Assembly: GCA_029856145.1 (NCBI GenBank)
Contig: JAHQWK010000004.1
Span: 160,001 to 224,000, forward strand
Direction of reading: 5' to 3'
DNA: 64,000 nt
Source of the DNA: Promethearchaeia archaeon
GTDB taxonomy: Archaea; Asgardarchaeota; Lokiarchaeia; Sigyniarchaeales; SOKP01
Under the pieces are notes generated by a model. It was not told where the DNA came from and searched no databases. It saw only the letters and a list, made by a program, of their open reading frames with translations. A program made the translations under genes and the position numbers. Shown piece by piece: positions 14,341 to 49,509 of this stretch. Numbering within the stretch: the stretch's first letter is position 1; each line of letters starts with the position of its first letter.

Positions 14341-15658
14341 TTTTATCAAGCAGTTTTTTTTTCAAATAGTAAACATTTTTTAGTTTTAATCTAATTTGAC
14401 CAATTATCCATATTAGTTTATTTGCACTAAGGGTCTCAGAAAGGCAAATTAAATTTTTAAGACTAAATTTTTTGTAATTCAAGCTATTCATAATGATATT
14501 AAAATTAGAACTTGAGAGGATTAAATGCTCAATTTTATCATTCATAGCCATGTTTTCAAAAGTTTTATTCAACTGTGTTATAAGTCTATGCGAATGATTA
14601 ATAATCACTGTATTAAAATCTTTAGACATCGATTGTACTATTATATTATCATTTAAGTTAGTTATAAAAAACATTGTTTTAGAAAAATCTCCAATTATAT
14701 CATCCAATATCTTTTTTAGATATATATTTTCTTTAGAAAAACCACTTAATAGTTCATAAAATGCGTTGTATAGGCTGTATATTAATTTTGGATAAATGCT
14801 TGTGTAATAAATAGAAATGTCAAATTTTCTTTTTATTTCATTAGTAATTTCCTTTAGAATCTTTCGTCTAGACTCCTTTCCAATCAGATCTATTTTATGA
14901 ATAAAAAGGATTACCTTGGCACTATAGGATTTATTAGTCATAATATCTCTAACTTTTTGGATATCATCTACAATTTGTTGGGAGTTAGAAACCCAAGTTG
15001 GATAATCGAATAGATATATAATAATATCAGTATTTTCAAATGCTAAGATATGATCACTATCATTTTCATTTTCCAGTAAATAACTTAACTCTTGTCCAGA
15101 AGAATCAAATAATCCTAATTTTAAATCCAACCATGAGTAGACAGATGGTGATATTCCACGTGTTGGTTCTAAAGGATTATATAATAAATCCTTGGGATTA
15201 TATCCTTCAAAAACAATTTTCTTAATACTTGTTTTTCCCGTACTAGCTCTTCCTATTAATAAGAATTTTTTTGTTGACGATTCTTCAAAAAAGGTGCCAA
15301 TTCTTTCCATAAAATATTTTTTTCTGTCATCCCTGGTTTTTTGTAAAGCTTTTTTTGAAAAATCAATAAATTTAGCTTTCAATGTATAAAGGTTAATCTT
15401 TTCCTTTTCATCAAGAATAATTACAAATATTTCATATCCTACATCCGTAACTTTAGATTTATCACAAAAACTCAGAATGGTTTGATCTTCATATGTAATC
15501 TCAATAATTTCGTCTTTAGTAAAATCTTCTTCATATGAATGAGTCATATATATTTTATTAATTAATTCATCTGTTAATTTTAAATCTAAAGGATATTTCA
15601 TCTCAAGTGTAGCACCCATCTTTGTATCCCAACTGAAGAATGCTAATCCTATAATCAT
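14333..15658 (-). CDS. uDENN/longin domain + Rag/Gtr-like GTPase + roadblock-like C-terminal domain
   Basis: MIIGLAFFSWDTKMGATLEMKYP N-terminus; GRASTGKTS, LEPTRG, DSSGQ, HKID, TSIY. ATG at 15658 follows a GGTGAT SD. Confidence 0.8.
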   Translation of the reverse strand: MIIGLAFFSWDTKMGATLEMKYPLDLKLTDELINKIYMTHSYEEDFTKDEIIEITYEDQTILSFCDKSKVTDVGYEIFVIILDEKEKINLYTLKAKFIDFSKKALQKTRDDRKKYFMERIGTFFEESSTKKFLLIGRASTGKTSIKKIVFEGYNPKDLLYNPLEPTRGISPSVYSWLDLKLGLFDSSGQELSYLLENENDSDHILAFENTDIIIYLFDYPTWVSNSQQIVDDIQKVRDIMTNKSYSAKVILFIHKIDLIGKESRRKILKEITNEIKRKFDISIYYTSIYPKLIYSLYNAFYELLSGFSKENIYLKKILDDIIGDFSKTMFFITNLNDNIIVQSMSKDFNTVIINHSHRLITQLNKTFENMAMNDKIEHLILSSSNFNIIMNSLNYKKFSLKNLICLSETLSANKLIWIIGQIRLKLKNVYYLKKKLLDKNE

Positions 15659-34926: not shown

Positions 34927-35694
34927 TTATTTTCCCATTCTTCGATTTCTTCTTAAATAATCTTCTATATCTTCAATTACCATTTCTTTATTATAATCAG
35001 GCCATAAATCCTCTCTAAATTTAAATTCAGCATAAGAAGAATCCCATAACAAAAATCCTGAGATTCTTGCTCCATCATCCATTCCAGTTCTAATGATGTA
35101 ATCTACTGGAGGGAAATTTTTCGTATAAAGATATTTTTTAATTAAATCCGTATTTACATCTTCTGGATTAACACCATCACTGATTATTTCCTTTACAGCG
35201 TCGACTATTTCTTCATGACCATCATACATAATACAAAGGTTTATGAAATTTTGGTCATGTTTCTTAGTAAATTCAATTAATTCTTCAATTTTTTTCTTTG
35301 CATTCTCTGGTAACATTGATATCCTACCAATAACATTGAATTTAACTTTTTCTTCTTTGACAATCGATTCATTTATTACCGTATCGACTGCTTTAATCAC
35401 TATCTTATAAATATACTCAAGTTCCTCAGGTTTACGTTTTTTCACATTTTCAAGTGATAAAATATACAAACTTAAATATTGGATCCCCGCATCAAAAAAA
35501 TCAAATAGCCTCTTTTTGAGGTTTTCATATCCGACTAGATGACCAAAATTGATATCAAGGTTTCTTTTTTTCGCCCATCGTCTGTTTTTGGTTAAAGGGG
35601 GAAATCCCTTTTAAATACCATCAATGATGAGCCCGATATGCTTAGGTAACCTATCTTTTCCAGTTTTTTTTAATTCTTCTAAAGTAGTGACCAT
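34927..35694 (-). CDS. uppS: cis-prenyltransferase (undecaprenyl/dolichyl-PP synthase) split by a 30-nt insertion; exons 35694-35616 and 35585-34927, 245 aa if spliced
   Basis: Removing 35586..35615 restores PKHIGLIIDGNRRWAK; also GH, LSLEN, YDG, DYIIRTG, RISGFLLW, YAEF, LWPDY, RNRRMGK. Confidence 0.9.
35586..35615 (-). other. Putative bulge-helix-bulge mRNA intron (30 nt) in uppS
   Basis: Sense strand TTG ATGG TA|T TTAAAAGGG ATTTC CCCCTTTAA CCAA AA|A CAG; contains an in-frame TAA. Confidence 0.75.
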
Positions 35695-36345: not shown

Positions 36346-38022
36346 ATGCTTTCTAACGATTATTTATTTTCGAACATTGGAATTGATTCTCTATCGTTTT
36401 TTTCGCCCAGAACTTATGTTGATTTACGTGAACTTGCGAGAGAACGGAATGTAGATCCTAATAAATATACTAAGGGTCTTCTGTCTAAGGAGATTCGAAT
36501 ACCTGAAGTTGATGAAGATGTTGTTTCTTTAGGTTTAAAAGCAGGTTATAATACCTTACAAAGAGGTGGTATCTCTCCTAAGAGTATTGATGCTTTGTTT
36601 TTTGGAAACGAAACTATAACATATAGTGTCAAGTCGATCTCTAACATTTTTGCCGAAATGTTAGATATTTCTCCTAATTCGATTACTCAAGACATATATA
36701 ATGCTTGTGCAGGCGGAACAATAGCAATTCTTAACGCTATAGGTTTAATTGAAAACAATATTATTAATAAAGCCCTCATTATAAGTGCTGATATCTCATC
36801 ATATCGTATAGGTTCGCCCGGTGAGCCAACACAAGGTTCAGGAGCTATTGGATTGGTTATCTCGAAAAATCCTCGAATAGCTAAATTTAGTAAAAATTTT
36901 GGAAAGATATCAGGTAATGTTAATGACTTTTTCAGACTTCCAAATGATAAAAATGCACAAGCATATGGTAAATATTCTCAAGAGGCTTATTTTAAATTCC
37001 AGCTTGGTGCATATGATGATTTAATCAAACATATTGGGGATTTTCATGCAGATTTCTATACATTTCATGCACCATACTCGAAACTTCCGATAAAGATAAT
37101 GCAACAAATAATACTAAAGCGTTGGATTAAACATATATATGAACTACCTAAATTTGAGAGAAAAGCGATTAGATCATCCATACTTACGAAGCTTGATCAT
37201 TTTCTACATGATGTAACCGTATTACCAGAATATCTTTATTTAAAACTAAAAGAAAGAGGATATTCTTCCCCCACTTTAGAGAAATTTTCATATTGGGTGA
37301 ACACAAATGTAAAAGAACGAGTACTTCCTCAACTAAATGTTCCAATGCACTTTGGTAACATGTATAATGCTTCGCTTTGGGCTCAAGTCCTTTACCTTCT
37401 CGAAAACCATGCTCGTGTTGATGATACAATTTATTTTGGTTCATACGGCTCGGGAGCGACTTGTATTTCAGGGCTTCTAAAAGTTCAAGATGATTTTAAG
37501 AAAATTATTCAGAATGGTCCTCACATTGATGACTTTATAAATATGAAAAAGAGAAAAAGCGTTCAAGAATACGAATTAATAAAGAATGGTACTACTAAAC
37601 CAAAGATTTTATTGGGTTATATTGTTGAACATGAACAAAATAATGAAAGAGGCTTTACCCTTCATTACTGTGATGATGGGTGCCTTATCCCGAATATAAA
37701 AGGATTAGATCACTGTCCGAAAGGGCATTCAGGATATCATAAACGGTTTTTCCCTCTCTTTGCGAAGTTGAATAGCGATCCAATTGCTCAATCAGATATC
37801 AATGATCTCAAATATTTAAAAGAAGGGTTAGTAAGAGTAGCTAGTAATGTAAAAAAAGGCAGTGCTTTAGAGTATGAAATAAGAAGAGTTGAGAATGAAA
37901 ACGAGGGAAATCTAAACGCAAAAGGATTATTAAATTGGAGTCCTATATATTTGCCAATATCAGAAAAATATTTAATAAAAAGAGATAATCAAATCGAAGA
38001 TCTGCCTATTGTTCTTGAATAA
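36346..38022 (+). CDS. mvaS: Hydroxymethylglutaryl-CoA synthase with internal insertion and C-terminal Cys/His domain (DUF35-like)
   Basis: Catalytic E (GNET), NACAGGT, HAPY, GNMYNAS, SYGSG; EPTQGSGA; tail CDDGC-x10-CPKGH. Confidence 0.88.
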   Translation: MLSNDYLFSNIGIDSLSFFSPRTYVDLRELARERNVDPNKYTKGLLSKEIRIPEVDEDVVSLGLKAGYNTLQRGGISPKSIDALFFGNETITYSVKSISNIFAEMLDISPNSITQDIYNACAGGTIAILNAIGLIENNIINKALIISADISSYRIGSPGEPTQGSGAIGLVISKNPRIAKFSKNFGKISGNVNDFFRLPNDKNAQAYGKYSQEAYFKFQLGAYDDLIKHIGDFHADFYTFHAPYSKLPIKIMQQIILKRWIKHIYELPKFERKAIRSSILTKLDHFLHDVTVLPEYLYLKLKERGYSSPTLEKFSYWVNTNVKERVLPQLNVPMHFGNMYNASLWAQVLYLLENHARVDDTIYFGSYGSGATCISGLLKVQDDFKKIIQNGPHIDDFINMKKRKSVQEYELIKNGTTKPKILLGYIVEHEQNNERGFTLHYCDDGCLIPNIKGLDHCPKGHSGYHKRFFPLFAKLNSDPIAQSDINDLKYLKEGLVRVASNVKKGSALEYEIRRVENENEGNLNAKGLLNWSPIYLPISEKYLIKRDNQIEDLPIVLE

Positions 38023-38075
38023 TAAGATACTACTACTTTTTTATCCTCATAACTAATTTTACATCCGCATTCAAT

Positions 38076-38636
38076 TTATTCATCTCCCCACCTCTTAATG
38101 TCACTTTCCACCCCAATTTGGTCAAGAATCCTCCCTACAGTATGATCGATAAGTTCATCAACGGATTCTGGATTAATGTAATAAGAAGGAATTGGGGGTG
38201 CAATTACAACACCTAAATTTGCTAGTTTAAGCATATTCTCTAAATGTATTGGACTTAATGGACTTTCCCTTACAATAAGAATTAGTTTTCGTTTTTCTTT
38301 TATTGTTACATCCGCAGCTCTTGTAATTAAATTATCAGAATAACCATTAGCTATTGATGCTAAAGTTTTCATAGTACAAGGAACAATGATCATTCCATCA
38401 GTTTTATACGAACCACTAGCAGGTGGAGCAGTCAAATCATTTACATCATAATAAGTTGTAGCTAATTGTTGAATATCAGTAATTCTTATGTTAGCTTCAC
38501 TTAAAAGAACTAGTTCAGCTGCTTTAGATATGATTAATTCAGTTTCAATATTTTTTTCTTTTAAATAATTTAATAATTTCACTGCAATTGATATACCTGA
38601 GGCACCAGTTATCGCAATAAGAATCATAATTCTCAC
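38076..38636 (-). CDS. ubiX: Flavin prenyltransferase (prFMN synthase)
   Basis: AITGASG, ASGS, PCTMKTLA, RAADVTIKE, RESP, HLENM. Confidence 0.95.
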   Translation of the reverse strand: MRIMILIAITGASGISIAVKLLNYLKEKNIETELIISKAAELVLLSEANIRITDIQQLATTYYDVNDLTAPPASGSYKTDGMIIVPCTMKTLASIANGYSDNLITRAADVTIKEKRKLILIVRESPLSPIHLENMLKLANLGVVIAPPIPSYYINPESVDELIDHTVGRILDQIGVESDIKRWGDE

Positions 38637-38763
38637 AGATATTTGATTGTAAATTTAAATTTCTTCTAAGTATTAATTAATTAGGAATAATAATTATTTT
38701 TTGTATTAATTGTAAAAATGTATAATAAAAAATACTTTTCTAAGATAAAATCGATTGTTAATT

Positions 38764-40044
38764 ATGAGTGGATATAATTCTGAAATTTCTGGTTTTTATA
38801 AATTATCAATAAAAAAACGCAGAGAACTATTATCTGAACTTATTAATTTTAATGAAAATGATATAAAACTTCTGGAGAATTTAGGTTACTTTACAGAAAC
38901 TCAAATTGATACCTTTATAGAGAATGTAATTGGTTCTTATCAATTACCAATTGGAATTGCTTGTAATTTTAAAGTAAACAATAAGGACTATTTAATCCCT
39001 ATGGTTATTGAAGAACCTTCAGTTGTAGCAGCAGCCTCAAATGCAGCAAAAATAGCTAGAAAACATGGAGGTTTTCACTCTGAGAATGTTAAATCAGTAA
39101 TGATCTCTCAAATTCAAATAACTAACGTAAAAGATATTGAATCTGCTAAAAGGAAATTAGAAGAAAATAAGGAAAGCATTTTAAAATACGCAAATGAAAA
39201 AGATCCTCTCTTAATAAAATTAGGTGGCGGAGCTTTTGATTTTGAAATTCGAGAGTTAACAACGAGAAGAGGAGAGATGTTGATTGTTCATTTATTAGTT
39301 GATGTTTTAGATGCCATGGGGGCGAATGTGGTAAATACTATGGCTGAAACCATTAGTCCGTATATAGAAGAAATATCTGGAGGCAAGATATATCTTAGAA
39401 TTGTATCCAATTTGGCAACTCATCGAATAGCGAAAAGTAAAGCAACATTTGATAAGGATTTATTAGGTGGAGACGAAGTAGTAGAAGGGATCTTAAATGC
39501 ATATGAATTTGCACTAGCAGATCCTTATAGAGCTACAACCCATAATAAAGGAATAATGAATGGAATTATAGCTTTAACGATGGCTACAGGAAACGATACG
39601 CGAGCTATTGAATCTGGGGCACACGCATATGCTGCATTGAATGGACAATATTCTCCATTAACCAAATTTCAGATTGATTCTAATGGAAATTTAGTAGGAG
39701 AAATAGAAGTCCCTCTTGCTCTAGGCATTATTGGAGGGATGACTAAAATACATCCTATGGCTCGACTAACTTTAAAAATTTTAAATATCAAAAGTGCAAA
39801 TGAACTTTCTCAAGTAGCAGCTGCGCTTGGTTTAGCTCAAAATGTGGCCGCCTTAAGAGCCTTAGCTTCAGAAGGAATCCAAGAAGGTCACATGGTTCTC
39901 CATTCGAGAAATATTGCAAAACTTGCAGGCGTACCTGAAAAGTTAATAGAAAAAGTAGCAAGCAAATTAGTAGAAGATAAGAAAATTAGAGTTGACCATG
40001 CGAAAGAAATTTTAAAAAGAATACTTAATAATGAAAACCTTTAG
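38764..40044 (+). CDS. hmgA: HMG-CoA reductase, class II
   Basis: ENVIG, EEPSVVAA, DAMGAN, THNKGIMNG, GNDTRA, GIQEGHM. Confidence 0.95.
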   Translation: MSGYNSEISGFYKLSIKKRRELLSELINFNENDIKLLENLGYFTETQIDTFIENVIGSYQLPIGIACNFKVNNKDYLIPMVIEEPSVVAAASNAAKIARKHGGFHSENVKSVMISQIQITNVKDIESAKRKLEENKESILKYANEKDPLLIKLGGGAFDFEIRELTTRRGEMLIVHLLVDVLDAMGANVVNTMAETISPYIEEISGGKIYLRIVSNLATHRIAKSKATFDKDLLGGDEVVEGILNAYEFALADPYRATTHNKGIMNGIIALTMATGNDTRAIESGAHAYAALNGQYSPLTKFQIDSNGNLVGEIEVPLALGIIGGMTKIHPMARLTLKILNIKSANELSQVAAALGLAQNVAALRALASEGIQEGHMVLHSRNIAKLAGVPEKLIEKVASKLVEDKKIRVDHAKEILKRILNNENL

Positions 40045-40111
40045 TTTTATAAAATTTGTTTCTGTAACTCAAAATATTAGTCAATTAGATCGAAATAAGT
40101 TTATGAGATGA

Positions 40112-41422
40112 ATGAAATTTATGGGCTTTAGAGAATATATAAATCAAATTGATGAAGAAGGTCTTCTTCGAAAGGTTGAAATTGAAGTATCGAAAAATTT
40201 AGAGATTCCCGGAATTTTGAAAGAGATTGAACCAACTCCAGTTATGTTTAATCATGTTAGAGAATCGGAATTTCGTGTAATTGGTAATGTTTTCTGTACT
40301 AAAAATGTAATTGCTTCATATTTCGGTGTTACTCCTGCAGATCTCATACCAATGCTCTCAAAAGCGATTTCAGAACGTTCAGAACCAGAAGTTGTTTCTA
40401 GGGCTCCTTGTCAAGAAGTCATTGAATCAGGAGTTGATTTAGATAATCTTCCAATTTTATTCCATTGTGAAAAAGATGGTGGAAATTATATTAGTTCTGC
40501 TGTTGTTATTACTCGAGATCCTGATTATGGACAAAATATGGATTTTCATCGAGCAATGCAATTTTCAAAAGGAAAATTTTCAACTCGAATAGTAAGGGGT
40601 CGTCATTTTCACAAATTTTTAGAAAAAAATGGTGAATTAGACGTAGCTTTTTGTATAGGAAATACTCCAAACATTCTAATTGCTGGAGCAACTTCTGTAG
40701 ATATTGGAGTTGATGAATTACAAATAGCAAATGCATTAGAACCTATTAAAGTAGTTAAAGCAAGTTCAGTAGATCTTCTAATACCTGCAGAAGCAGAATT
40801 CATTTTAGAAGGACGTGTTTATTTAGAAGAAAAACATTCAGAAGGTCCTTTTGTTGATCTAACTGAGACCTATGACACGATTAGAGAAGAACCCGTCTTT
40901 GAAGTAAAAAAAATCACTCATAGAAAAGATGCGATTTGGCAAGCTTTATTACCAGGTGCACTTGAACATAAAATATTAATGGGGATGCCTCGAGAGCCAA
41001 CTATATTTAATAAAGTAAAGGAAGCAGGAGTAAAGTGTTTAGATGTAAATGTAAATCCTGGAGGTTGTTCATGGTTACATGCAATAGTCCAGATTGATAA
41101 AAAAACAGAAGAAGACGGGAAAAAAGCGATATTTGGTACCTTTACAGGGCATAGAAGTTGTAAACATGTTTTTATTGTTGATAAAGATATTAATATTTAT
41201 GATCCTCTCTCTGTAGAATGGGCGATGGCAACTCGCTTCCAAGGAGATACCAGAATGATAGTGAAAAATAAAGAACCAGGCAGTAGTTTGGACCCCAGTG
41301 CTGAACCAAGCAGTAAGTTAACTACCAAAATTGGGTTTGATTTAACTAAACCACTTGTCGTTAAAGGAAAGAGTTTTGATATTGCAGAATTTCCAAAAGT
41401 TGATCTGAACAAATATTTTTAA
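40112..41422 (+). CDS. ubiD: UbiD-family decarboxylase; by context anhydromevalonate-phosphate decarboxylase
   Basis: DGGNY, EGPFVD, VDKDINI, WAMATR, GSSLDPS, KIGFDLTKP; lies within the mevalonate operon next to ubiX. Confidence 0.88.
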   Translation: MKFMGFREYINQIDEEGLLRKVEIEVSKNLEIPGILKEIEPTPVMFNHVRESEFRVIGNVFCTKNVIASYFGVTPADLIPMLSKAISERSEPEVVSRAPCQEVIESGVDLDNLPILFHCEKDGGNYISSAVVITRDPDYGQNMDFHRAMQFSKGKFSTRIVRGRHFHKFLEKNGELDVAFCIGNTPNILIAGATSVDIGVDELQIANALEPIKVVKASSVDLLIPAEAEFILEGRVYLEEKHSEGPFVDLTETYDTIREEPVFEVKKITHRKDAIWQALLPGALEHKILMGMPREPTIFNKVKEAGVKCLDVNVNPGGCSWLHAIVQIDKKTEEDGKKAIFGTFTGHRSCKHVFIVDKDINIYDPLSVEWAMATRFQGDTRMIVKNKEPGSSLDPSAEPSSKLTTKIGFDLTKPLVVKGKSFDIAEFPKVDLNKYF

Positions 41423-41439
41423 GATGAGGAAAGGAAAAA

Positions 41440-42633
41440 ATGAAATTAACATCAGAAGAACAGGACACGCTGGATGGCAAGCACGGTAAAGCTGCCCAAA
41501 AATCAATGGAAATTTTAACCACATTGGGCGAAATATTTGATGCTGAATGCATGATCGATGTATATGGCGTTCAGATAGCTGGAGTATCGTACGCCAATCT
41601 AGGGGAAGCAGGTTTGGAATTCTTAAGCGAAATGGCAGAAGATGGAAAAGTTAGAGTTTTAGCGACATTAAATCCAGCAGGAATGGATCGTGAAAATTGG
41701 CAAGCTTTAGGAATAGATGAAGAATTTGCTAAAAATCAGAATCGAGCAATTGATGCATTTGCCAAAATGGGTATAATTACAACATGCTCTTGTACCCCAT
41801 ATTTAATTGGAAATGCTCCACACTACGGTCAACATCTTGCATGGGCTGAAAGTAGTGCTGTATGTTATGCAAACTCAGTTATAGGTGCTAGAACTAACCG
41901 TGAGGGTGGTCCAAGTGCTTTAGCTTCAGCTATAACCGGAAAAACGCCAAAATATGGTTATCATTTAGATGAACATCGTCATGGAGAGGTATTAGTTAAA
42001 ATAAATGCTCCAATTAAAGGTACTGATGGATTTGGTGTTTTGGGAAAAATAATTGGGGATAAATTAGTCGAGTTAGGAAAGAAAATTCCTTATATAACAG
42101 GAATTCCTTCTGCTACAGTTGAAGAACTCAAATCTTTTTGTGCATCAGTTGCGACTTACGGTGGAACAGCTTTATTCCATATGAAAGGTATAACTCCAGA
42201 ATATAATAATTATCAGAAACCTAGTGATATTGTTTTTGAAATTAATCAAGATGACTTAGATAGAACGCGATTGGAACTTATTGATGATGATATTGAGATA
42301 GATTTTGTTAGTATAGGGTGCCCTCATGCTTCAATTCACGAAATTGCAAAGATTGCGAGCTTATTGAAGGGAAAGAAAGTAAAAAAAGAATTTTGGATCA
42401 CGACTGCTCGACCTACAAAAAGAATTGCTGATGAAGCGGGTTATTCTAAAATAATTGAAAATGCAGGAGCGAAATTTGCAGCAGATACTTGTTGTGTTGT
42501 TGCTCCAATTAAAGAACGTTTTAAAGGAATTATGGTAGATTCAGCAAAAGCTTGTTATTATGGTCGTGCAAAGAACAAATTTAAAGTAAAAATTGGTTCA
42601 GTTGAAGAATGTGTTGAGGAGGCAATAAAATGA
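41440..42633 (+). CDS. Aconitase X large subunit; by context phosphomevalonate dehydratase large subunit
   Basis: TLNP, CSCTPY, WAESSA, GARTNREGG, GCPH, DTCCVVAP, DSAKACYY. Confidence 0.9.
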   Translation: MKLTSEEQDTLDGKHGKAAQKSMEILTTLGEIFDAECMIDVYGVQIAGVSYANLGEAGLEFLSEMAEDGKVRVLATLNPAGMDRENWQALGIDEEFAKNQNRAIDAFAKMGIITTCSCTPYLIGNAPHYGQHLAWAESSAVCYANSVIGARTNREGGPSALASAITGKTPKYGYHLDEHRHGEVLVKINAPIKGTDGFGVLGKIIGDKLVELGKKIPYITGIPSATVEELKSFCASVATYGGTALFHMKGITPEYNNYQKPSDIVFEINQDDLDRTRLELIDDDIEIDFVSIGCPHASIHEIAKIASLLKGKKVKKEFWITTARPTKRIADEAGYSKIIENAGAKFAADTCCVVAPIKERFKGIMVDSAKACYYGRAKNKFKVKIGSVEECVEEAIK

Positions 42634-43019
42634 AATTAGCTGGTAGAAAAATCTTTAAAGGTACTGCTGAGGCAGAAGCAATTGTTACACAAGATGGAAT
42701 TTCTTTTTATGGTGGTATTGACCCTGATACAGGAAAAGTAGTTGAAGTTGGCCATGAGCTTGAAGGACAATCGATATCAGGAAAAGTGTTGGTTTTTCCA
42801 ACCGGTAAAGGATCAACAGTGGGATCTTATACCATGTATAGAATGAAAAAGAATAACACTGCTCCTGTTGCAATCGTTAATAAAGAAATCGATACAATTG
42901 TTGCAGTAGGGTGTATAATCAGCGAAATTCCTTGTGTGGATAAAATTGATATAAGTAATATCAAAACAGGACAAAAAATTATTGTTAATGGTTCTGAAGG
43001 AACTGTGGAGGTAAAATAA
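42630..43019 (+). CDS. Aconitase X swivel domain (DUF126); phosphomevalonate dehydratase small subunit
   Basis: ISFYGGIDPDTG, GKVLVFPTGKGSTVGSY; overlaps the large-subunit stop. Confidence 0.9.
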   Translation: MKLAGRKIFKGTAEAEAIVTQDGISFYGGIDPDTGKVVEVGHELEGQSISGKVLVFPTGKGSTVGSYTMYRMKKNNTAPVAIVNKEIDTIVAVGCIISEIPCVDKIDISNIKTGQKIIVNGSEGTVEVK

Positions 43020-43986
43020 ATGGGAGTCGGAAAAGGATATGGAAAGACCATACTTTTTGGTGAAATTATTTTCCTATTTCAGGAATAAACACTATCATTT
43101 TGTTGTGTATGGTCTTCCAGCAATCGCATCAGCTTTAGGATCCTCTACGACTGCTGAAGTTAAAGTAGTCAAGGGTAATGGTTGGACAGTTAATGATCAA
43201 AGACTTGCAACACCAGGTTACAAAAAGAAGAAATTCAATGAGGCAATACAATCAATTAAAAATGTAATTGAACATTTGAGAGTGGATACCGAGAATAAAA
43301 AACTTGAAATAAAATTTGCGGGGGATCTGATTGCCGCTAGCGGAGTAGGTGCTTCAGCTGCTCAATGTACATCACTTTCCCGAGCTTTAAATGACACGTT
43401 TAATCTCAAATTAACTGAAAAAAAGATAAATGAGGCAGCTTATGAAGGAGAGAAAGCCTATCATGGTACTCCTTCAGGTATTGATAACACAGCCTCTACT
43501 TATGGTGGTTTAATTTGGTTTGTTAAAAACTTGAGAGGGGGGGAAAATACGATGGAACTTCTACAGTCACCAAAGAAAATGCCCTTAGTAATAATAAATT
43601 CAGGAATAACAGCTTCTACAACAGAAGTAGTAGCTGATGTTCGACGTTTAAAAGAGGAATCTCCTTTAAAATTTGAAAAAATCTTTAATAATTATGAAAA
43701 ATTAGCATTAGCAGCAAAAAAAGCCTTACTTGAAGGAAATATTAACACTGTTGGTGACCTAATGAATCAAAACCACAAATTACTACAAGATATAACGGTA
43801 TCTGGAGAGATTAATGATAAATTAGTCGAAATCTCCTTACGAAATGGGGCTAAAGGTGCTAAAATGACAGGAACAGGGCGAGGTGGTTTGGTCATAGCAT
43901 TAGCTGAAAATGAAGAAATTCAAGATGAAATCGCCAAAACTATTGAAAAAAAAGGATATAATGCCTGGAAAACCATGATTGGATGA
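43020..43986 (+). CDS. mvk: Mevalonate kinase split by a 31-nt insertion; exons 43020-43064 and 43096-43986, 311 aa if spliced
   Basis: ATG directly follows the upstream TAA. Removing 43065..43095 restores GKTILFGEHFVVYG; also SGVGASAA, HGTPSGIDN, GAKMTGTGRGG. Confidence 0.9.
43065..43095 (+). other. Putative bulge-helix-bulge mRNA intron (31 nt) in mvk
   Basis: T GGTG AA|A TTATTTTCCT ATTTC AGGAATAAA CACT AT|C A; GGTG pairs with CACT; frameshifts the gene and has TAA in the exon-1 frame. Confidence 0.78.
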
Positions 43987-45892
43987 GTGGGAGTTAAAAT
44001 TGAAAAGTGATAATGAGATATTTCTATTAAAGTTAGGAGGTAGTTTATTAACTGATAAGAATAAACCTTTTTCTCTTAGAGAAGAGGTTTTAGAGAACTG
44101 TCTTAATCAAATTATTGAAAGTAAAAAATCAATTATTTTAATTCATGGAGGCGGATCATTTGGGCATCCAATTGCTAAAAAATATCAAATTTCTGAAGGA
44201 CTAAATGATACTGTCAAGGATCAAATAATTGGACTTTCAAAAACCCATGAGGTTATGAATAAATTTAATTCTATAATAATAAACAAATTATTAGATAAAG
44301 GATATCCCGCAATTTCGATTCAGCCTTCTAGTATTTTTGTAAAAGATTTTAATCAAATAAAAATAAATACAATAGAACCTATTGAAAAATTACTTGAACT
44401 TGGAATAATCCCGGTTTTATATGGTGATATTGTTTTAAGTTGGGATTCTTATTTTTCAATTCTTTCAGGAGATCAAATTATTTTAAAACTATGTGAAAAA
44501 ATTCAAAATTTTAAGATTTCAAAAGTCATATTTGCAATTGAAAAGGATGGTATCTTCATAAAAGACAATGGAAACGAAAAACTGGCTTTAAAATTAAGTT
44601 CCAACGATTTAAATAATCTAAAATTGGCTGAATTAGATCAAAAAATAGATGTTACTGGGGGGATAAAAGGTAAACTAGAAACAATTAAAGAAATAATAAA
44701 ATTTAATATCCCTGTTCAAATTGTTAATGGGCTTAAGAATAAAAATATTCTAAAGGCATTACTTAATCAATCTATAGAATGTACTAATATTAAAGTGCCA
44801 TCTGATAAAAGATTTGAAAATAAATTATATAATAGGAAGATAGAACACATAGAAATCCCTTTAAAGTATAATGTGCAACATTCAAAGAACTATTTTGATG
44901 ATATAAATCTACTTCATCATCCCCTACCGGAGTATGAATTAGAGGATATTGATCTTTCTGTTGATTTTTTTAAAAAAGAAATTTCAGCTCCTATATGTAT
45001 TGCAGCAATTACAGGTGGCCATGAAATTTCTAAAGCAATTAATAATATCTTAGCAAATGCTGCAAGTTCAGAAAATATTATTATGAGTGTTGGATCTCAA
45101 AGAATAGGCTTGGAGGATCCTTCCACCATTGATTCATTTAAAGTTGTACGTGATGTTGCCCCTAATATTCCAATAATAGGAAATTTGGGAGTTGGACAGT
45201 TATGTGATCCTAATTTTAATTTAGATCATTTTAATAAATGCATTGAGATGATTAATGCTGATGTTATGGCTATACATTTGAACGCTTTACATGAACTTAC
45301 TCAAAGTGATGGTAATCTTTCTTATAAAAATTTTGAAGAAATATTTAAAGAAATAAGAAAAAATCTGAAAATTCCAATTATAGCTAAAGAAGTGGGATCA
45401 GGGTTTAATAAGGAATTAGCGTTAAAACTCGATTCATTAGGAATTGATGGATTTGACGTTGGAGGAATGGGGGGTACTAGTTTTGCTGCAATAGAGTCAA
45501 TACGCGATGATTCTAGCTATGAAGTATATACTCGAAAGATTGCAGACACTTTTCGAGAATGGGGCATTCCAACACCCGTAAGTATAATCAATGTTAGAAA
45601 AGCCACTAAAAAACTTATAATAGCAACAGGAGGCTTAAGAAATGGTCTAGATATAGCCAAAGCAATCTCAATTGGAGCAAATATCGGGGGATTTGCATTT
45701 AAGTTTTTAAAAACAGCATGGCAAGATTATAAAAATAATACTTTGTCAAATACAATCAAGGAGATAAAAACGCTGAAACAAGAATTAAGATCCTCACTAT
45801 GGTTAATGAATATAGATAATATTGATAAGCTAATAGGTAATGACGATAAAAGGGTTTTATTGGGCAAATTATATCAATGGATAAATCAATGA
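43979..45892 (+). CDS. fni: Fusion of isopentenyl-phosphate kinase and type 2 isopentenyl-diphosphate isomerase
   Basis: N-terminal LKLGGS, HGGGSFGH, YGD, SGD, DVTGGI; C-terminal RKIEH, ITGG, GSQR, HLN, KEVGSG, GGTSF, ATGGLRNGLD. The start could be TTG at 44000. Confidence 0.9.
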   Translation: MDEWELKLKSDNEIFLLKLGGSLLTDKNKPFSLREEVLENCLNQIIESKKSIILIHGGGSFGHPIAKKYQISEGLNDTVKDQIIGLSKTHEVMNKFNSIIINKLLDKGYPAISIQPSSIFVKDFNQIKINTIEPIEKLLELGIIPVLYGDIVLSWDSYFSILSGDQIILKLCEKIQNFKISKVIFAIEKDGIFIKDNGNEKLALKLSSNDLNNLKLAELDQKIDVTGGIKGKLETIKEIIKFNIPVQIVNGLKNKNILKALLNQSIECTNIKVPSDKRFENKLYNRKIEHIEIPLKYNVQHSKNYFDDINLLHHPLPEYELEDIDLSVDFFKKEISAPICIAAITGGHEISKAINNILANAASSENIIMSVGSQRIGLEDPSTIDSFKVVRDVAPNIPIIGNLGVGQLCDPNFNLDHFNKCIEMINADVMAIHLNALHELTQSDGNLSYKNFEEIFKEIRKNLKIPIIAKEVGSGFNKELALKLDSLGIDGFDVGGMGGTSFAAIESIRDDSSYEVYTRKIADTFREWGIPTPVSIINVRKATKKLIIATGGLRNGLDIAKAISIGANIGGFAFKFLKTAWQDYKNNTLSNTIKEIKTLKQELRSSLWLMNIDNIDKLIGNDDKRVLLGKLYQWINQ

Positions 45893-45915
45893 GATTTCTA
45901 CAAAAGATGCAATTT

Positions 45916-46137
45916 TTAATATCTTGTATCAAAAATTTTATTCACTAGCTGGTAGCCTCTATTATTTTCATCCGAAAAGATACATCTATGCCTAATATCA
46001 TTCTTTTTTTGGGAATATTTCATACATCCCCAACATTGTACTTTAGCAAAACTGAACTTCTTTTTTTTATTTTGTTCTCTTACCTCTTCGCATATCTTTA
46101 ATGCAATTTCTTCTGGAATAAGGTCCTTTTCTTTCAT
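45916..46137 (-). CDS. Small Cys-containing hypothetical protein
   Basis: 73 aa with C...CWGC...C pattern. Confidence 0.6.
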   Translation of the reverse strand: MKEKDLIPEEIALKICEEVREQNKKKKFSFAKVQCWGCMKYSQKKNDIRHRCIFSDENNRGYQLVNKIFDTRY

Positions 46138-46263
46138 ATTCTTTCACGATGTATTATTTAAGATAGAATTTACCTATTTAAGATAGACTTATATTTATAA
46201 TTATTAAAATCATCAATAGACCAAATATTGAATATTAATCCAAATTGGACTTTTTTCCTTTCG

Positions 46264-46650
46264 CTAAAGATTTTTTTCTTCCAATGAAGTTTCAATTTCA
46301 TTAATAAAATCATAAAAAGCACCTATTTTTCCCTTAAAGCTTTTTACTTCTTCATTGTAAAGTTTTAAGAATTTATTTGATATCTTTTCTAATTCTTTAT
46401 TTACTTTTTTCTGATTGTATTTTTTTGATGATGTCGCAACGAGTATTAGGTTCATCTTCTTTATTATAGTGAATCTCGTATCTTTTAAATCGAAATTTGA
46501 TAAACCTCCTTCAGTTAATTGTTCAGCAAACATATTTAGTGCGCTCAACATTGCCCCAAAAAGTTGAGGAGAAACCACATTATCAAACTCTCTATGAAAA
46601 ATCACTATCCCTGATTTTTCCAAAATCCAAATATCTTGGAGTATTTTCAA
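46264..46650 (-). CDS. Stand-alone longin-like protein
   Basis: IWILEKSGIVIFHREF, LFGAMLSALNMFAEQL, terminal helix KELEKISNKFLKLY; GGAG SD. Confidence 0.7.
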   Translation of the reverse strand: MKILQDIWILEKSGIVIFHREFDNVVSPQLFGAMLSALNMFAEQLTEGGLSNFDLKDTRFTIIKKMNLILVATSSKKYNQKKVNKELEKISNKFLKLYNEEVKSFKGKIGAFYDFINEIETSLEEKNL

Positions 46651-46811
46651 TTAGACTCCTCGTTAAATCTCTATTAATTTATTAAAGTCAATAAAATCAT
46701 ACAAAAGTATAGTCTTTTATAAACTATCCTTTTTCATATATTATGAAATAAATATGTTTTTAATCTATTTTTAAGTTTTTGAAGCTTTCATTTATTAATT
46801 TCTAAACAACA

Positions 46812-47198
46812 TTAAACAAGATTATATTTTTTAATATGTTCAAAAATCTCATTAAAATAAGACAAGTCAAAAGGTTTTTTCAAATATCCCTCTGCTTTTG
46901 TTTCAAGCGCTTTTACTGCAACCTCTGCCTCAGTAACTCCGGTAAAATAGTATACAAGTACTTTATTGAATTTCTCTGTTGATTTAAGCATTTTACAAAA
47001 ATCATATCCATTCGAACCCGGTAAATTCACATCTAAGAATATTAATTTAGGTAAGCAAGTATCTAATACTTCCATTGCTAAAGAGATATTTTCAACAGCT
47101 CTACATGTATAGCCTTTTGATTCTAAAATTTCTGTTAATAGCATTTTTATATATTTGCTATCATCTATAATTAGAATCTCATATTGAAGATCCTCCAT
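46812..47198 (-). CDS. Single-domain response regulator
   Basis: IIDDS, LDVNLP, FTG, KKPF. Confidence 0.9.
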   Translation of the reverse strand: MEDLQYEILIIDDSKYIKMLLTEILESKGYTCRAVENISLAMEVLDTCLPKLIFLDVNLPGSNGYDFCKMLKSTEKFNKVLVYYFTGVTEAEVAVKALETKAEGYLKKPFDLSYFNEIFEHIKKYNLV

Positions 47199-47363
47199 TC
47201 CATATCAACTGTCAAATTTTTATCTTCATTATTTGAATAATAAAATTATCTTTCTTACATATCTTCAACAAAGAAAGATTTATTTAAAGTTGAGTTTTTA
47301 GATAAAACTGTGTAACAATATCATAAAATCACTAAAAGGGGATAATTTACACACAAATCTTTT

Positions 47364-48431
47364 TTAGAATTTTCTCTCTCTCACAAAATTTAATAAATCT
47401 TCATAGAATTCCATTTCAGATTGTTTAGTCTCACTTTTTAACCTATTTAAAGATAATCTTGCTTCTTGAAAATACGAATTTGCTAAAGCTTTGCATGATT
47501 TAATGACATCTGCTTTAAGAAACAAATCTTTAACACTTTGAACATCTTTATTCGTCATATCTGGCTTTTCTATTAATTCCTCAAGTTTAATCTTTTCCCT
47601 ATCCTCTAATTTATTCAAAGCATCAATCAGTAGACAAGTTTTCTTACCCTCTCTGATATCTCCATCTATTGGTTTACCAGTTACTTTTTCATCACCAAAT
47701 GTTCCTAAGATATCATCAATTATCTGGAAAATAATACCAAGATTTATACCATAAATCGAAAGATTCTTTAATATCTTCTCATTAACTTTCGCATAAGTTG
47801 CACCAATTAAAATTGATTTTTCCAATAATGCTCCAGTTTTAAGTGAAATCATCCTAATATAATCTGAAATTGTAAGATCTTTCTGGTTCACCATATCAGT
47901 TTCAATTAGTACACCATTAGCAATATCAATAAATCCTTGTTCATAATATTTAATGGCATTTAAATTCAAATCATTATTAAAATTGTTAAAAAGATAAGCT
48001 TCTAATCCTAAAAAAAAAGCTGAATCCCCTCCAATAATTCCTATTGAATTACCAAAATCAATATCGTTCATTTTCTTCAAATTGTATCGTTGATGATAAT
48101 TGCGGAATCTAAAGTGAAATGCAGGTTTTCCCCTTCTAAAATTATCTTTATCGATAATGTCGTCATGGATCAATGAGGCATTATGAAGGAATTCCACCCC
48201 AACACTTGGTAAAACAATTTTTTCATCTATTTTCTCATTAAAAGCATTAAAGCTAGCAATACATAATAATGGCCTGATTCTCTTTCCACCTGATAGAAAG
48301 TAATCCTTTAATTCTGAGTAGTAATCCTTTAAAAATGGGTTTTTTTTACTATTCAGTTTCCTATCATAGATCGATTTTATCGCGTTATTTATCTTAGGAA
48401 TATATTTCTTTGAGTATTCGATAAATTTCAT
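47364..48431 (-). CDS. idsA: trans-polyprenyl (geranylgeranyl) diphosphate synthase
   Basis: GGKRIRP, LIHDDIIDKDNFRRG, KTG, FQIIDDILG, DIREGKKT. Confidence 0.92.
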   Translation of the reverse strand: MKFIEYSKKYIPKINNAIKSIYDRKLNSKKNPFLKDYYSELKDYFLSGGKRIRPLLCIASFNAFNEKIDEKIVLPSVGVEFLHNASLIHDDIIDKDNFRRGKPAFHFRFRNYHQRYNLKKMNDIDFGNSIGIIGGDSAFFLGLEAYLFNNFNNDLNLNAIKYYEQGFIDIANGVLIETDMVNQKDLTISDYIRMISLKTGALLEKSILIGATYAKVNEKILKNLSIYGINLGIIFQIIDDILGTFGDEKVTGKPIDGDIREGKKTCLLIDALNKLEDREKIKLEELIEKPDMTNKDVQSVKDLFLKADVIKSCKALANSYFQEARLSLNRLKSETKQSEMEFYEDLLNFVRERKF

Positions 48432-48591: not shown

Positions 48592-49509
48592 TCACCAAAT
48601 TAATTCAAAAACAATTTTAAATGTAGCTATTATATGAGGTTGTAATGTAATTTCGAGCTTATTTTGTGCATAATTATTAACTTTTGCTTTAATATCATTT
48701 TTTGGTTTTTCTTCAAGAAAGTTTACAATTATAACATTTTTAATAGATATTTTCTCGTAAAATGTTAAAATCGCTTTTTGAGGAATAGAAGATATATTAT
48801 AAAATCTTATAATAAGAGAATCTCCTTCTTCAGCTTGTTTTAATGCACTTAAAACGACACTTTTATTATCAATTTCAAGAAATCTAAAAATCGGTGGAAG
48901 GTAAGATTCAAATTGGTTCTTATTAGGTTTAAAAAGATAGGATAACACTCCAGTTGGCTTTAATACAACTTTATTTGACATTCTAAAGGGACTTTGAGCC
49001 ATTGCTGGAAAGATTGGTTTAAGCGGATTGTTAAATTCCTTTCCTTTAAGGTGTACTTCTGAATCTAACCAGTTTGATTCTGATGAAGTAACTACTGCTA
49101 ATTCAAATGAATATTTGCTGAGACATTGCGCACCTGGAGTACTAAAACCTGGACCTGCATGAGACATTCTAGACGCAAAATCATCACGGGATAGCCACTC
49201 AATACATCGTAAAAGAGTTATTACAAATGTAATTGTATTATCCTCATTTATTTTAGCTTCATATTCTGGCAAGCCCTTATTTAATACTGCAAAAGTGCTT
49301 GAATCATTACTAATGGAGACTTCTAAATTATCCTCTAAAGGAATGGTTTGGCCATCTAATACAAAATTACTATATTCAGGATCAGTTTTTAGAATATCCA
49401 ATAATTTATCCATCATAATTACAAGCCTAGCTCGAAATTCTTGAAAAGTGAGATACCACTCTCTATCCCAATGAGTTTCTGGAACGATTATGATATTATT
49501 TGCTTTCAT
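48592..49509 (-). pseudogene. GH38 alpha-mannosidase with a large in-frame internal deletion
   Basis: N-terminal THWDREWY...LDGQ...LEDNLEV joins directly to the C-terminal domain (AVLNKGLPEYE, ITLLRC, TPGAQC, LSALKQAE, IIRFYN); most of the catalytic and middle domains is absent. Confidence 0.75.

What the first reader, a model, noticed from the sequence alone, without database searches (positions are those of the whole stretch)
43065..43095. Candidate BHB micro-intron splitting the GEH motif of mevalonate kinase
Seen: ATG 43020 reads MGVGKGYGKTILFGE, then 31 extra nt, then HFVVYG in another frame. Unspliced, the reading stops at TAA after 22 codons. The insert folds as exon GGTG paired with intron CACT (4-bp helix), 3-nt bulges AA|A and AT|C, and an internal hairpin TTCCT-ATTTC-AGGAA. 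Cutting after the second base of each bulge gives exactly GKTILFGEHFVVYG. The outer exon-exon helix is only 1 bp, so this is a relaxed BHB. Known: archaeal tRNA splicing endonuclease cuts BHB motifs at these positions and RtcB ligates; mRNA introns in archaea are rare (crenarchaeal cbf5 is the classic case). Inference: a core enzyme of an otherwise intact operon needs splicing to be expressed.
Basis: partly seen in the sequence, partly recalled or inferred. Interest (0 to 1): 0.95.

Follow-up and report, generated by a model that had tools for sequence, protein, structure and literature searches.

The report
tRNA-type mini-intron in Asgard mevalonate kinase
The only mevalonate kinase gene found in this Asgard archaeon (a key lipid-pathway enzyme) is interrupted by a 31-base insert shaped like a tRNA intron and conserved in dozens of relatives, so its messenger RNA most likely has to be cut and rejoined by the tRNA-splicing enzymes, which in archaeal coding sequences has been shown only for cbf5.

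Summary
Observation confirmed; interpretation supported, but spliced RNA was not seen. A 31-nt insert (43065-43095) splits GE|H of mevalonate kinase in a Lokiarchaeia (Promethearchaeota) genome. Only one removal register restores the 311-aa protein, and that register gives a bulge-helix-bulge (BHB) with a 4-bp central helix. The insert is identical in 10 other assemblies examined. It recurs at the same site (28-31 nt) in 53 of 161 class genomes, all in one family, five genera; about half of the close orthologues lack it. Pairing covaries, and dN/dS is the same (0.12) with and without it. No second mvk was found. The genome encodes a two-subunit EndA with the crenarchaeal-type specificity loop, and RtcB. 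Frameshifting is disfavoured because 13 of 37 alleles have stops in both frames. This scan has noted the same mvk intron in other genomes before; I found no paper on it.

The parts
43007..43012 (+). Shine-Dalgarno-like GGAGGT inside the end of the upstream AcnX small-subunit gene, whose stop abuts the mvk ATG
43020..43064 (+). mvk exon 1, 15 codons ending GKTILFGE
43041..43052 (+). 5' arm of the distal exon-exon helix
   Evidence: 95% of cells paired in 33 intron-bearing alleles
43059..43065 (+). exon strand of the central helix (GGTG) and 5' bulge AA|A; predicted cut after 43064
43065..43095 (+). 31-nt BHB-type intron; in-frame TAA at 43086-43088; inner hairpin 43071-43085; intron-side pairs 43066-67 with 43088-89
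43090..43096 (+). intron strand of the central helix (CACT) and 3' bulge AT|C; predicted cut after 43095
43096..43986 (+). mvk exon 2, 296 codons (TIGR00549 mevalonate kinase from model position 11)
43108..43118 (+). 3' arm of the distal exon-exon helix
43039..43986 (+). mis-called 315-aa ORF that starts in the wrong frame (MERPY...) and lacks the GKxILFGE motif; many database entries have this false N-terminus
35586..35615 (-). second candidate 30-nt BHB-like intron, splitting DG|N of uppS in the same isoprenoid cluster; present in 7 of 30 genus loci
36346..48431 (.). intact mevalonate/isoprenoid cluster: HMG-CoA synthase, UbiX, HMG-CoA reductase, UbiD, AcnX large and small, mvk, IPK-IDI2 fusion, polyprenyl (GGPP-like) synthase

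Best explanation
The insert is an intron of the archaeal tRNA type in a protein-coding mRNA. The mvk transcript folds so that the two exons clamp together (11-bp distal helix) and the junctions form a bulge-helix-bulge. The heteromeric splicing endonuclease (EndA alpha/beta) cuts after the second base of each 3-nt bulge (43064/43065 and 43095/43096), RtcB joins the exons, and the mRNA then encodes a 311-aa mevalonate kinase. Unspliced mRNA gives a 22-aa peptide. Shown: sequence, geometry, conservation, covariation, purifying selection, presence of the enzymes. Inferred: cleavage, ligation and protein. The intron is probably a tolerated, nearly neutral passenger that is gained or lost by homologous recombination together with about 100 nt of flank, and it is one of several such introns in this genome.
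For: The boundaries are fixed by protein homology alone (single register) and fall exactly at BHB cut positions; background 0.16%. Same-site inserts occur in 18 of 27 same-genus loci, in 36 close orthologues of the genome collection with about as many lacking it, and in 53 of 161 class genomes. Lengths of 28, 30 and 31 nt all keep both junctions. Covariation: 7 pairs with changes on both sides, 90% of cells paired against 39-47% for slid controls. In one search the exon Gly codon GGT goes with intron CAC in 3 of 4 alleles, and none of the 49 GGC alleles has CAC. Synonymous sites that pair are nearly fixed in intron-bearing alleles (Phe13 TTT 36/36, against TTC in 72% of intron-less alleles). 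Exon-exon duplex mean -14.9 against -8.3 kcal/mol; -19.0 here is reached by 2 of 3000 synonymous shuffles. dN/dS 0.121 in both classes, 0.127 for this genome. The other two GHMP-family genes do not look like mvk. The EndA alpha subunit keeps Tyr/His/Lys and a loop like that of crenarchaeal catalytic subunits (best PDB hits 3p1z/3ajv); the second paralogue lacks the His; RtcB is present. Many tRNAs here appear to carry short introns.
Against: No spliced cDNA or RNA contig found: 0 exact junction matches in the JGI collection and no 311-aa member listed in ten clusters of intron-bearing alleles; these collections are mostly DNA, so the test is weak. The BHB is not the predicted minimum-energy fold (gap 4.3 kcal/mol here, median 2.0 across 37 alleles), and RNAalifold prefers another inner pairing. 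26 of 36 relatives have a G-A mismatch in the central helix, and relaxed motifs often arise by chance when placement is free (10.64898/2026.10.13.758758). Part of the flank conservation may be shared descent of a recombining block, not selection. Sequences are related, so the shuffle counts are not probabilities.
Confidence: 0.87

Rival explanations
1. Translational recoding: a programmed frameshift or a ribosomal hop over the insert (T4 gene 60 style) makes the enzyme without splicing.
For: The insert has a hairpin, U-runs and a stop in the exon-1 frame. In this genome the exon-2 frame is open through the insert.
Against: 13 of 37 alleles have a stop in the exon-2 frame inside the insert, several directly before His16, and all 37 have a stop in the exon-1 frame. 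Lengths of 28, 30 and 31 nt would need different shifts. No landing codon matches the take-off GAA. A shift would put about 10 residues into the GEH motif. Recoding does not predict exon-intron covariation.
Confidence: 0.05
2. A truncated or two-piece enzyme is made from unspliced mRNA by an internal start (ATG 43039, or GTG at Val19).
For: Gene callers annotate 293-315 aa products as mevalonate kinase.
Against: These products lack the GKxILFGE strand conserved in solved mevalonate kinases (its role in ATP and substrate binding is from general knowledge). The ATG is not conserved and is cut off by stops in many alleles. Exon 1 stays invariant at GKTILFGE.
Confidence: 0.03
3. An inactivating insertion (pseudogene) or an assembly artefact.
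For: Half of the orthologues lack the insert, and no RNA data support splicing.
Against: Identical in 10 assemblies; 53 species; dN/dS unchanged; no other mvk found and the operon is intact.
Confidence: 0.02
4. The insert is removed from RNA, but by a nuclease or fold other than EndA acting on a BHB.
For: The central helix is only 3 of 4 pairs in most alleles and competes with other folds.
Against: The cut sites match BHB geometry exactly. In six further inserts of this genome, one of the equivalent registers gives at least 3 of 4 central pairs. At 31 nt it is too short for group I or II introns, and it has no GU-AG ends.
Confidence: 0.03

Closest known systems
cbf5 pre-mRNA intron of Desulfurococcales and Sulfolobales (Watanabe 2002; Yoshinari 2006; Yokobori 2009, PMC2738675)
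   Same: Short intron in a coding sequence at a conserved motif; BHB-like junctions, often relaxed; heteromeric EndA; patchy presence across lineages; gene missed or mis-called by annotation.
   Different: Here a central metabolic enzyme of an Asgard lineage, not an RNA-modifying enzyme; one of several candidate mRNA introns in the same genome; presence flips between alleles that are 94-96% identical, with exchange of flanks; splicing not yet shown.
BHB intron in the 5' UTR of HVO_1309, Haloferax volcanii (PMC7714728)
   Same: An mRNA substrate of the archaeal splicing endonuclease.
   Different: That intron is 46 nt and untranslated; this one breaks the reading frame, so expression depends on its removal.
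Non-canonical tRNA introns of Asgard archaea (PMC11291895; bioRxiv 10.64898/2026.10.13.758758)
   Same: Same motif classes and repeated gains; the same EndA is expected to act; similar in size to the tRNA introns seen in this genome.
   Different: Those papers treat tRNA genes; the passages searched do not mention mRNA introns. No sequence match was found between this intron and any tRNA intron of the genome.
HAC1/XBP1 unconventional splicing in eukaryotes (from memory)
   Same: Short non-spliceosomal frame-shifting intron, joined by a tRNA-type ligase.
   Different: Cut by Ire1 at stem-loops and regulated; no regulation is shown here.

Membership tests
Archaeal BHB (EndA-spliced) intron | 4-bp central helix between exon and intron strands | tested here: met
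   4/4 in this genome (one G-U); 3/4 plus G-A in 26 of 36 relatives
Archaeal BHB (EndA-spliced) intron | Two 3-nt bulges with the splice sites after the second base of each | tested here: met
   The single register fixed by homology gives AA|A and AT|C; bulges conserved as AA(A/T/G) and A(T/A/G)C
Archaeal BHB (EndA-spliced) intron | At least one flanking helix of two or more contiguous pairs (canonical class as defined in 10.64898/2026.10.13.758758) | tested here: met
   Intron side: 2 U-A pairs here, 4 in most relatives. Exon side: only 1 contiguous pair, then an internal loop and an 11-bp helix, so HBh' rather than hBHBh'
Archaeal BHB (EndA-spliced) intron | Structure conserved by compensatory change | tested here: met
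   7 pairs with both sides changed, 2 of 500 shuffles; only one of them is in the central helix; sequences are related
Archaeal BHB (EndA-spliced) intron | BHB is the dominant predicted fold | tested here: inconclusive
   pair probability 0.39 here; above 0.5 in 11 of 37 alleles
Archaeal BHB (EndA-spliced) intron | Host encodes a broad-specificity EndA and RtcB | tested here: met
   two EndA paralogues, one with Tyr/His/Lys and a KPR loop aligned to crenarchaeal catalytic subunits; RtcB; specificity not assayed
Archaeal BHB (EndA-spliced) intron | Excision and exon ligation in vivo or in vitro | not testable with these tools
   no spliced contig; needs RNA or an enzyme assay
Mevalonate kinase (TIGR00549) | Score above the curated cut-off and intact N-terminal motif after splicing | tested here: met
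   exon 2 alone 207.9 bits against cut-off 163; an intron-less orthologue aligns from residue 2 with PDB 2hfs
Programmed frameshift or translational bypass | Open second frame across the site, or matched take-off and landing codons | tested here: not met
   stops in the exon-2 frame in 13 of 37 alleles; no matching codon before His16
Homing intron with endonuclease | Endonuclease gene in or beside the intron | tested here: not met
   the intron is 31 nt; upstream genes in 29 loci are AcnX small, a diphosphomevalonate decarboxylase-like gene or other non-nuclease frames; downstream is IPK-IDI2; a trans-acting nuclease elsewhere was not sought

The most novel reading that the evidence does not exclude
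In this Lokiarchaeia family, EndA/RtcB splicing of mRNA is routine: each genome carries a changing set of 28-32 nt BHB introns at conserved motifs of housekeeping genes (here mvk, uppS, rpl11, aIF2-gamma, and probably nifU, cspA, an FAD oxidoreductase and rps3), and the introns spread and vanish by recombination of flanking blocks. That would make multi-gene, non-spliceosomal mRNA splicing a standing feature of the archaeal group closest to eukaryotes, with many genes now mis-annotated.
Probability: 0.65. Interest if true: 0.92.

Novelty: new variant of a known kind. Interest (0 to 1): 0.8.

Why it matters
In the papers I could read, splicing of an archaeal coding sequence is confirmed only for cbf5, plus one 5' UTR intron in Haloferax (PMC2738675, PMC7714728). 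A frame-breaking intron in the only mevalonate kinase gene found would make membrane-lipid synthesis depend on the tRNA-splicing enzymes in Asgard archaea. With the other candidates in this genome it points to mRNA splicing on a multi-gene scale in the lineage closest to eukaryotes, and bears on how introns could be tolerated before the spliceosome. It is directly testable with a 90-nt transcript and two small recombinant proteins. It also explains a systematic annotation error: 51 of the 120 best database hits begin with insert-encoded residues in the wrong frame.

Tried and rejected
Search for spliced RNA: the exact junction pattern gave 0 hits in JGI contigs. Short contigs with intact 311-aa proteins (L064-L066, L077, L079) have intron-less-type flanks without the exon helix, so they are genomic intron-less alleles and not transcripts. 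Cluster look-up listed no 311-aa member among intron-bearing clusters. Profile scan for copies of this intron elsewhere in the genome or in its tRNAs: no convincing second copy. Ab initio genome-wide BHB scans (timed out) were dominated by false positives; they yielded only motif-recognisable cases, one of them new to me (rpl11), so no genome-wide count is claimed. A neighbouring homing endonuclease was not seen. Precise intron loss by reverse transcription is disfavoured: close intron-less partners have diverged flanks. The direction of change (gain or loss) is not resolved: the mvk tree needs 20 changes, at least 7 by well-supported branches, and recombination confounds it. For rps3 the homology-consistent register gave only 2 of 4 central pairs. 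Paper searches found no report of this intron; the library lacks most subscription papers, and the 2009 cbf5 paper notes that other archaeal mRNA introns had been predicted.

Full report
Observation. ATG 43020 abuts the stop of the AcnX small-subunit gene, follows a GGAGGT site, and reads 15 codons to ...LFGE. Thirty-one bases follow, with TAA at 43086-43088 in the exon-1 frame, and HFVVYG resumes at 43096 in another frame. Removal gives a 311-aa open frame, the same length as intron-less orthologues. Only one register gives this product. It places the cuts after the second base of two 3-nt bulges (AA|A, AT|C) around the helix GGTG/CACT. Arbitrary 31-nt segments of this genome give four central pairs in 2.5% of cases, and also two intron-side pairs and one outer pair in 0.16%. 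The same insert is in 10 independent contigs.

Organism and context. Close orthologues come mostly from records titled Promethearchaeota or Lokiarchaeota. The gene lies in an intact cluster: HMG-CoA synthase, UbiX, HMG-CoA reductase, UbiD, AcnX large and small, mvk, an IPK-IDI2 fusion and a polyprenyl synthase. From general knowledge this is the archaeal modified mevalonate pathway, which needs mevalonate kinase. The exon-2 query finds one match in the genome. The two other GHMP-family genes look by their motifs like a heptose-phosphate kinase and a beta-RFAP synthase (my reading, not scanned). The genome is 97% complete, so a missed copy is unlikely but possible.

Relatives. Eighteen of 27 same-genus loci carry an insert at exactly this site and nine read FGEHF without a break. 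In the genome collection 36 close orthologues have it (33 of 31 nt, two of 30, one of 28) and about as many do not. A junction pattern finds it in 53 of 161 class genomes, all in one family, five genera, with zero hits for the reversed control. The pattern fits this mvk subtype only; five sampled genes of the other subtype are uninterrupted. All 37 alleles have a stop in the exon-1 frame and 13 also in the exon-2 frame, which excludes a simple frameshift as the general route. dN/dS of exon 2 is 0.121 with the insert, 0.121 without, and 0.127 for this genome against other carriers.

Structure. On 33 ungapped alleles the proposed fold has 90% of cells paired, against 39-47% when partners are slid. 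Seven pairs show changes on both sides, six in the intron stem and one in the central helix. The central change is informative: the exon Gly codon GGT pairs with intron CAC in this genome, G068 and G073, and with CGC (U-G) in G077, while all 49 GGC alleles keep G. The first pair of the helix is G-U here but G-A in 26 of 36 relatives, so most alleles are relaxed motifs. Its duplex energy averages -14.9 kcal/mol in carriers and -8.3 in non-carriers, and the -19.0 of this genome is reached by 2 of 3000 synonymous shuffles. Two cautions apply. The BHB is not the minimum-energy fold (4.3 kcal/mol above it here). And the flanks may be alike partly through shared descent.

Machinery. The genome has two EndA paralogues and one RtcB. 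One paralogue matches crenarchaeal catalytic subunits best (PDB 3p1z/3ajv; from memory Aeropyrum), with Tyr, His and Lys in place and a GxPLGxxKPR loop aligned to the same loop there. The other lacks the His and is probably structural. Such loops are linked to cleavage of relaxed motifs (PMC12397907), and relaxed heteromeric EndA was proposed to allow the cbf5 intron (PMC2738675). Many tRNAs of this genome appear to have short introns, so the enzyme should be in use.

Evolution. Presence is interleaved on the mvk tree (20 changes; shuffled mean 42). Pairs that are 94-96% identical in distal exon 2 differ in intron state, and in most of them identity falls to 70-78% in exon 1 and the first 60 nt of exon 2. 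The intron therefore moves with a flanking block by homologous recombination, not by precise excision. No endonuclease gene was seen next to it. The direction is not resolved. This pattern argues for a tolerated passenger more than for a conserved regulatory switch; regulation is not excluded.

Other genes. Following earlier scan notes and my own scan, I checked more inserts in this genome. uppS in this window (30 nt, 35586-35615, minus strand) has one in 7 of 30 genus loci. rpl11 (28 nt, four central pairs) has one in 13 of 29, and aIF2-gamma (30 nt) in 4 of 30. nifU, cspA and an FAD oxidoreductase show 30-32 nt inserts where one of the equivalent registers gives three or four central pairs; rps3 is weaker; these four were not compared across genomes. 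The sets differ between genomes: G009 lacks the mvk intron but has the uppS one.

What is not shown. No spliced RNA was found. Cleavage, ligation and the protein are inferred.

Comparison and novelty. It works like the cbf5 pre-mRNA intron and meets every sequence-level criterion of a BHB intron that I could test; excision could not be tested. A 2020 paper names cbf5 as the only earlier archaeal mRNA case and adds a 5' UTR intron (PMC7714728). The 2009 paper says other cases were predicted but unconfirmed. Asgard intron papers cover tRNAs. Seven searches found nothing on this intron. This scan has noted the same mvk intron in at least eight other findings and similar introns in other archaea; these are unchecked AI notes and I count them as leads only.

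Verdict. Real, conserved and very probably spliced (0.87). New variant of a known kind. Interest 0.8; 0.92 if multi-gene mRNA splicing in this family is confirmed.

Noticed in passing
window 35586-35615 (-): 30-nt insert with an in-frame stop splits DG|NRRW of uppS; present in 7 of 30 genus loci, central helix 2-3 of 4 pairs.
   Followed up: yes
G000:C28, first base 14768 (-); L241, L247-L276: 28-nt insert in rpl11 (GI|NIK) with four central pairs and an 8-bp stem; present in 13 of 29 genus loci. Not among the earlier notes I saw.
   Followed up: yes
G000:C5:34200-34229 (+); L277-L306: 30-nt insert in the GHVDHG|KT P-loop of aIF2-gamma; in 4 of 30 genus loci; variants fix the register.
   Followed up: yes
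G000:C10:33334 (+), C6:11627 (-), C2:161153 (+), C8 about 31450 (-): 30-32 nt inserts in nifU, cspA, an FAD oxidoreductase and rps3; BHB-like registers for the first three, weak for rps3.
   Followed up: partly
L002-L006, L009, L011, L019, L023 upstream of mvk: A gene of about 335 codons with the motif HSNIALIKYWG (diphosphomevalonate decarboxylase-like) sits between AcnX small and mvk, which then starts with TTG. These genomes may encode two routes from mevalonate phosphate. All such loci seen carry the intron.
   Followed up: partly
window 43979-45892 (+): Isopentenyl phosphate kinase fused to type 2 IPP isomerase (637 aa); in L068 an in-frame stop splits it at residue 494.
   Followed up: partly
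window 43020-43986; L309 (G006), also G020, G028: This mvk subtype is closest to PDB 2hfs (E 1e-76, against 1e-30 for other solved mevalonate kinases); some genus members have the other subtype instead (about 35% identity).
   Followed up: partly
protein databases, P0005-P0120: 51 of the 120 best hits are annotated with a false, out-of-frame N-terminus that runs through the intron.
   Followed up: yes
window 48592-49509 (-): A 305-aa ORF that begins like a GH38 alpha-mannosidase (THWDREWY) and seems to lack most of the middle; possible internal deletion.
   Followed up: no
G000 tRNA genes (C2, C3, C8, C18, C20, C22): Many tRNAs carry one or more short introns at non-standard sites and are mis-called or missed by ARAGORN (27 called).
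   Followed up: partly
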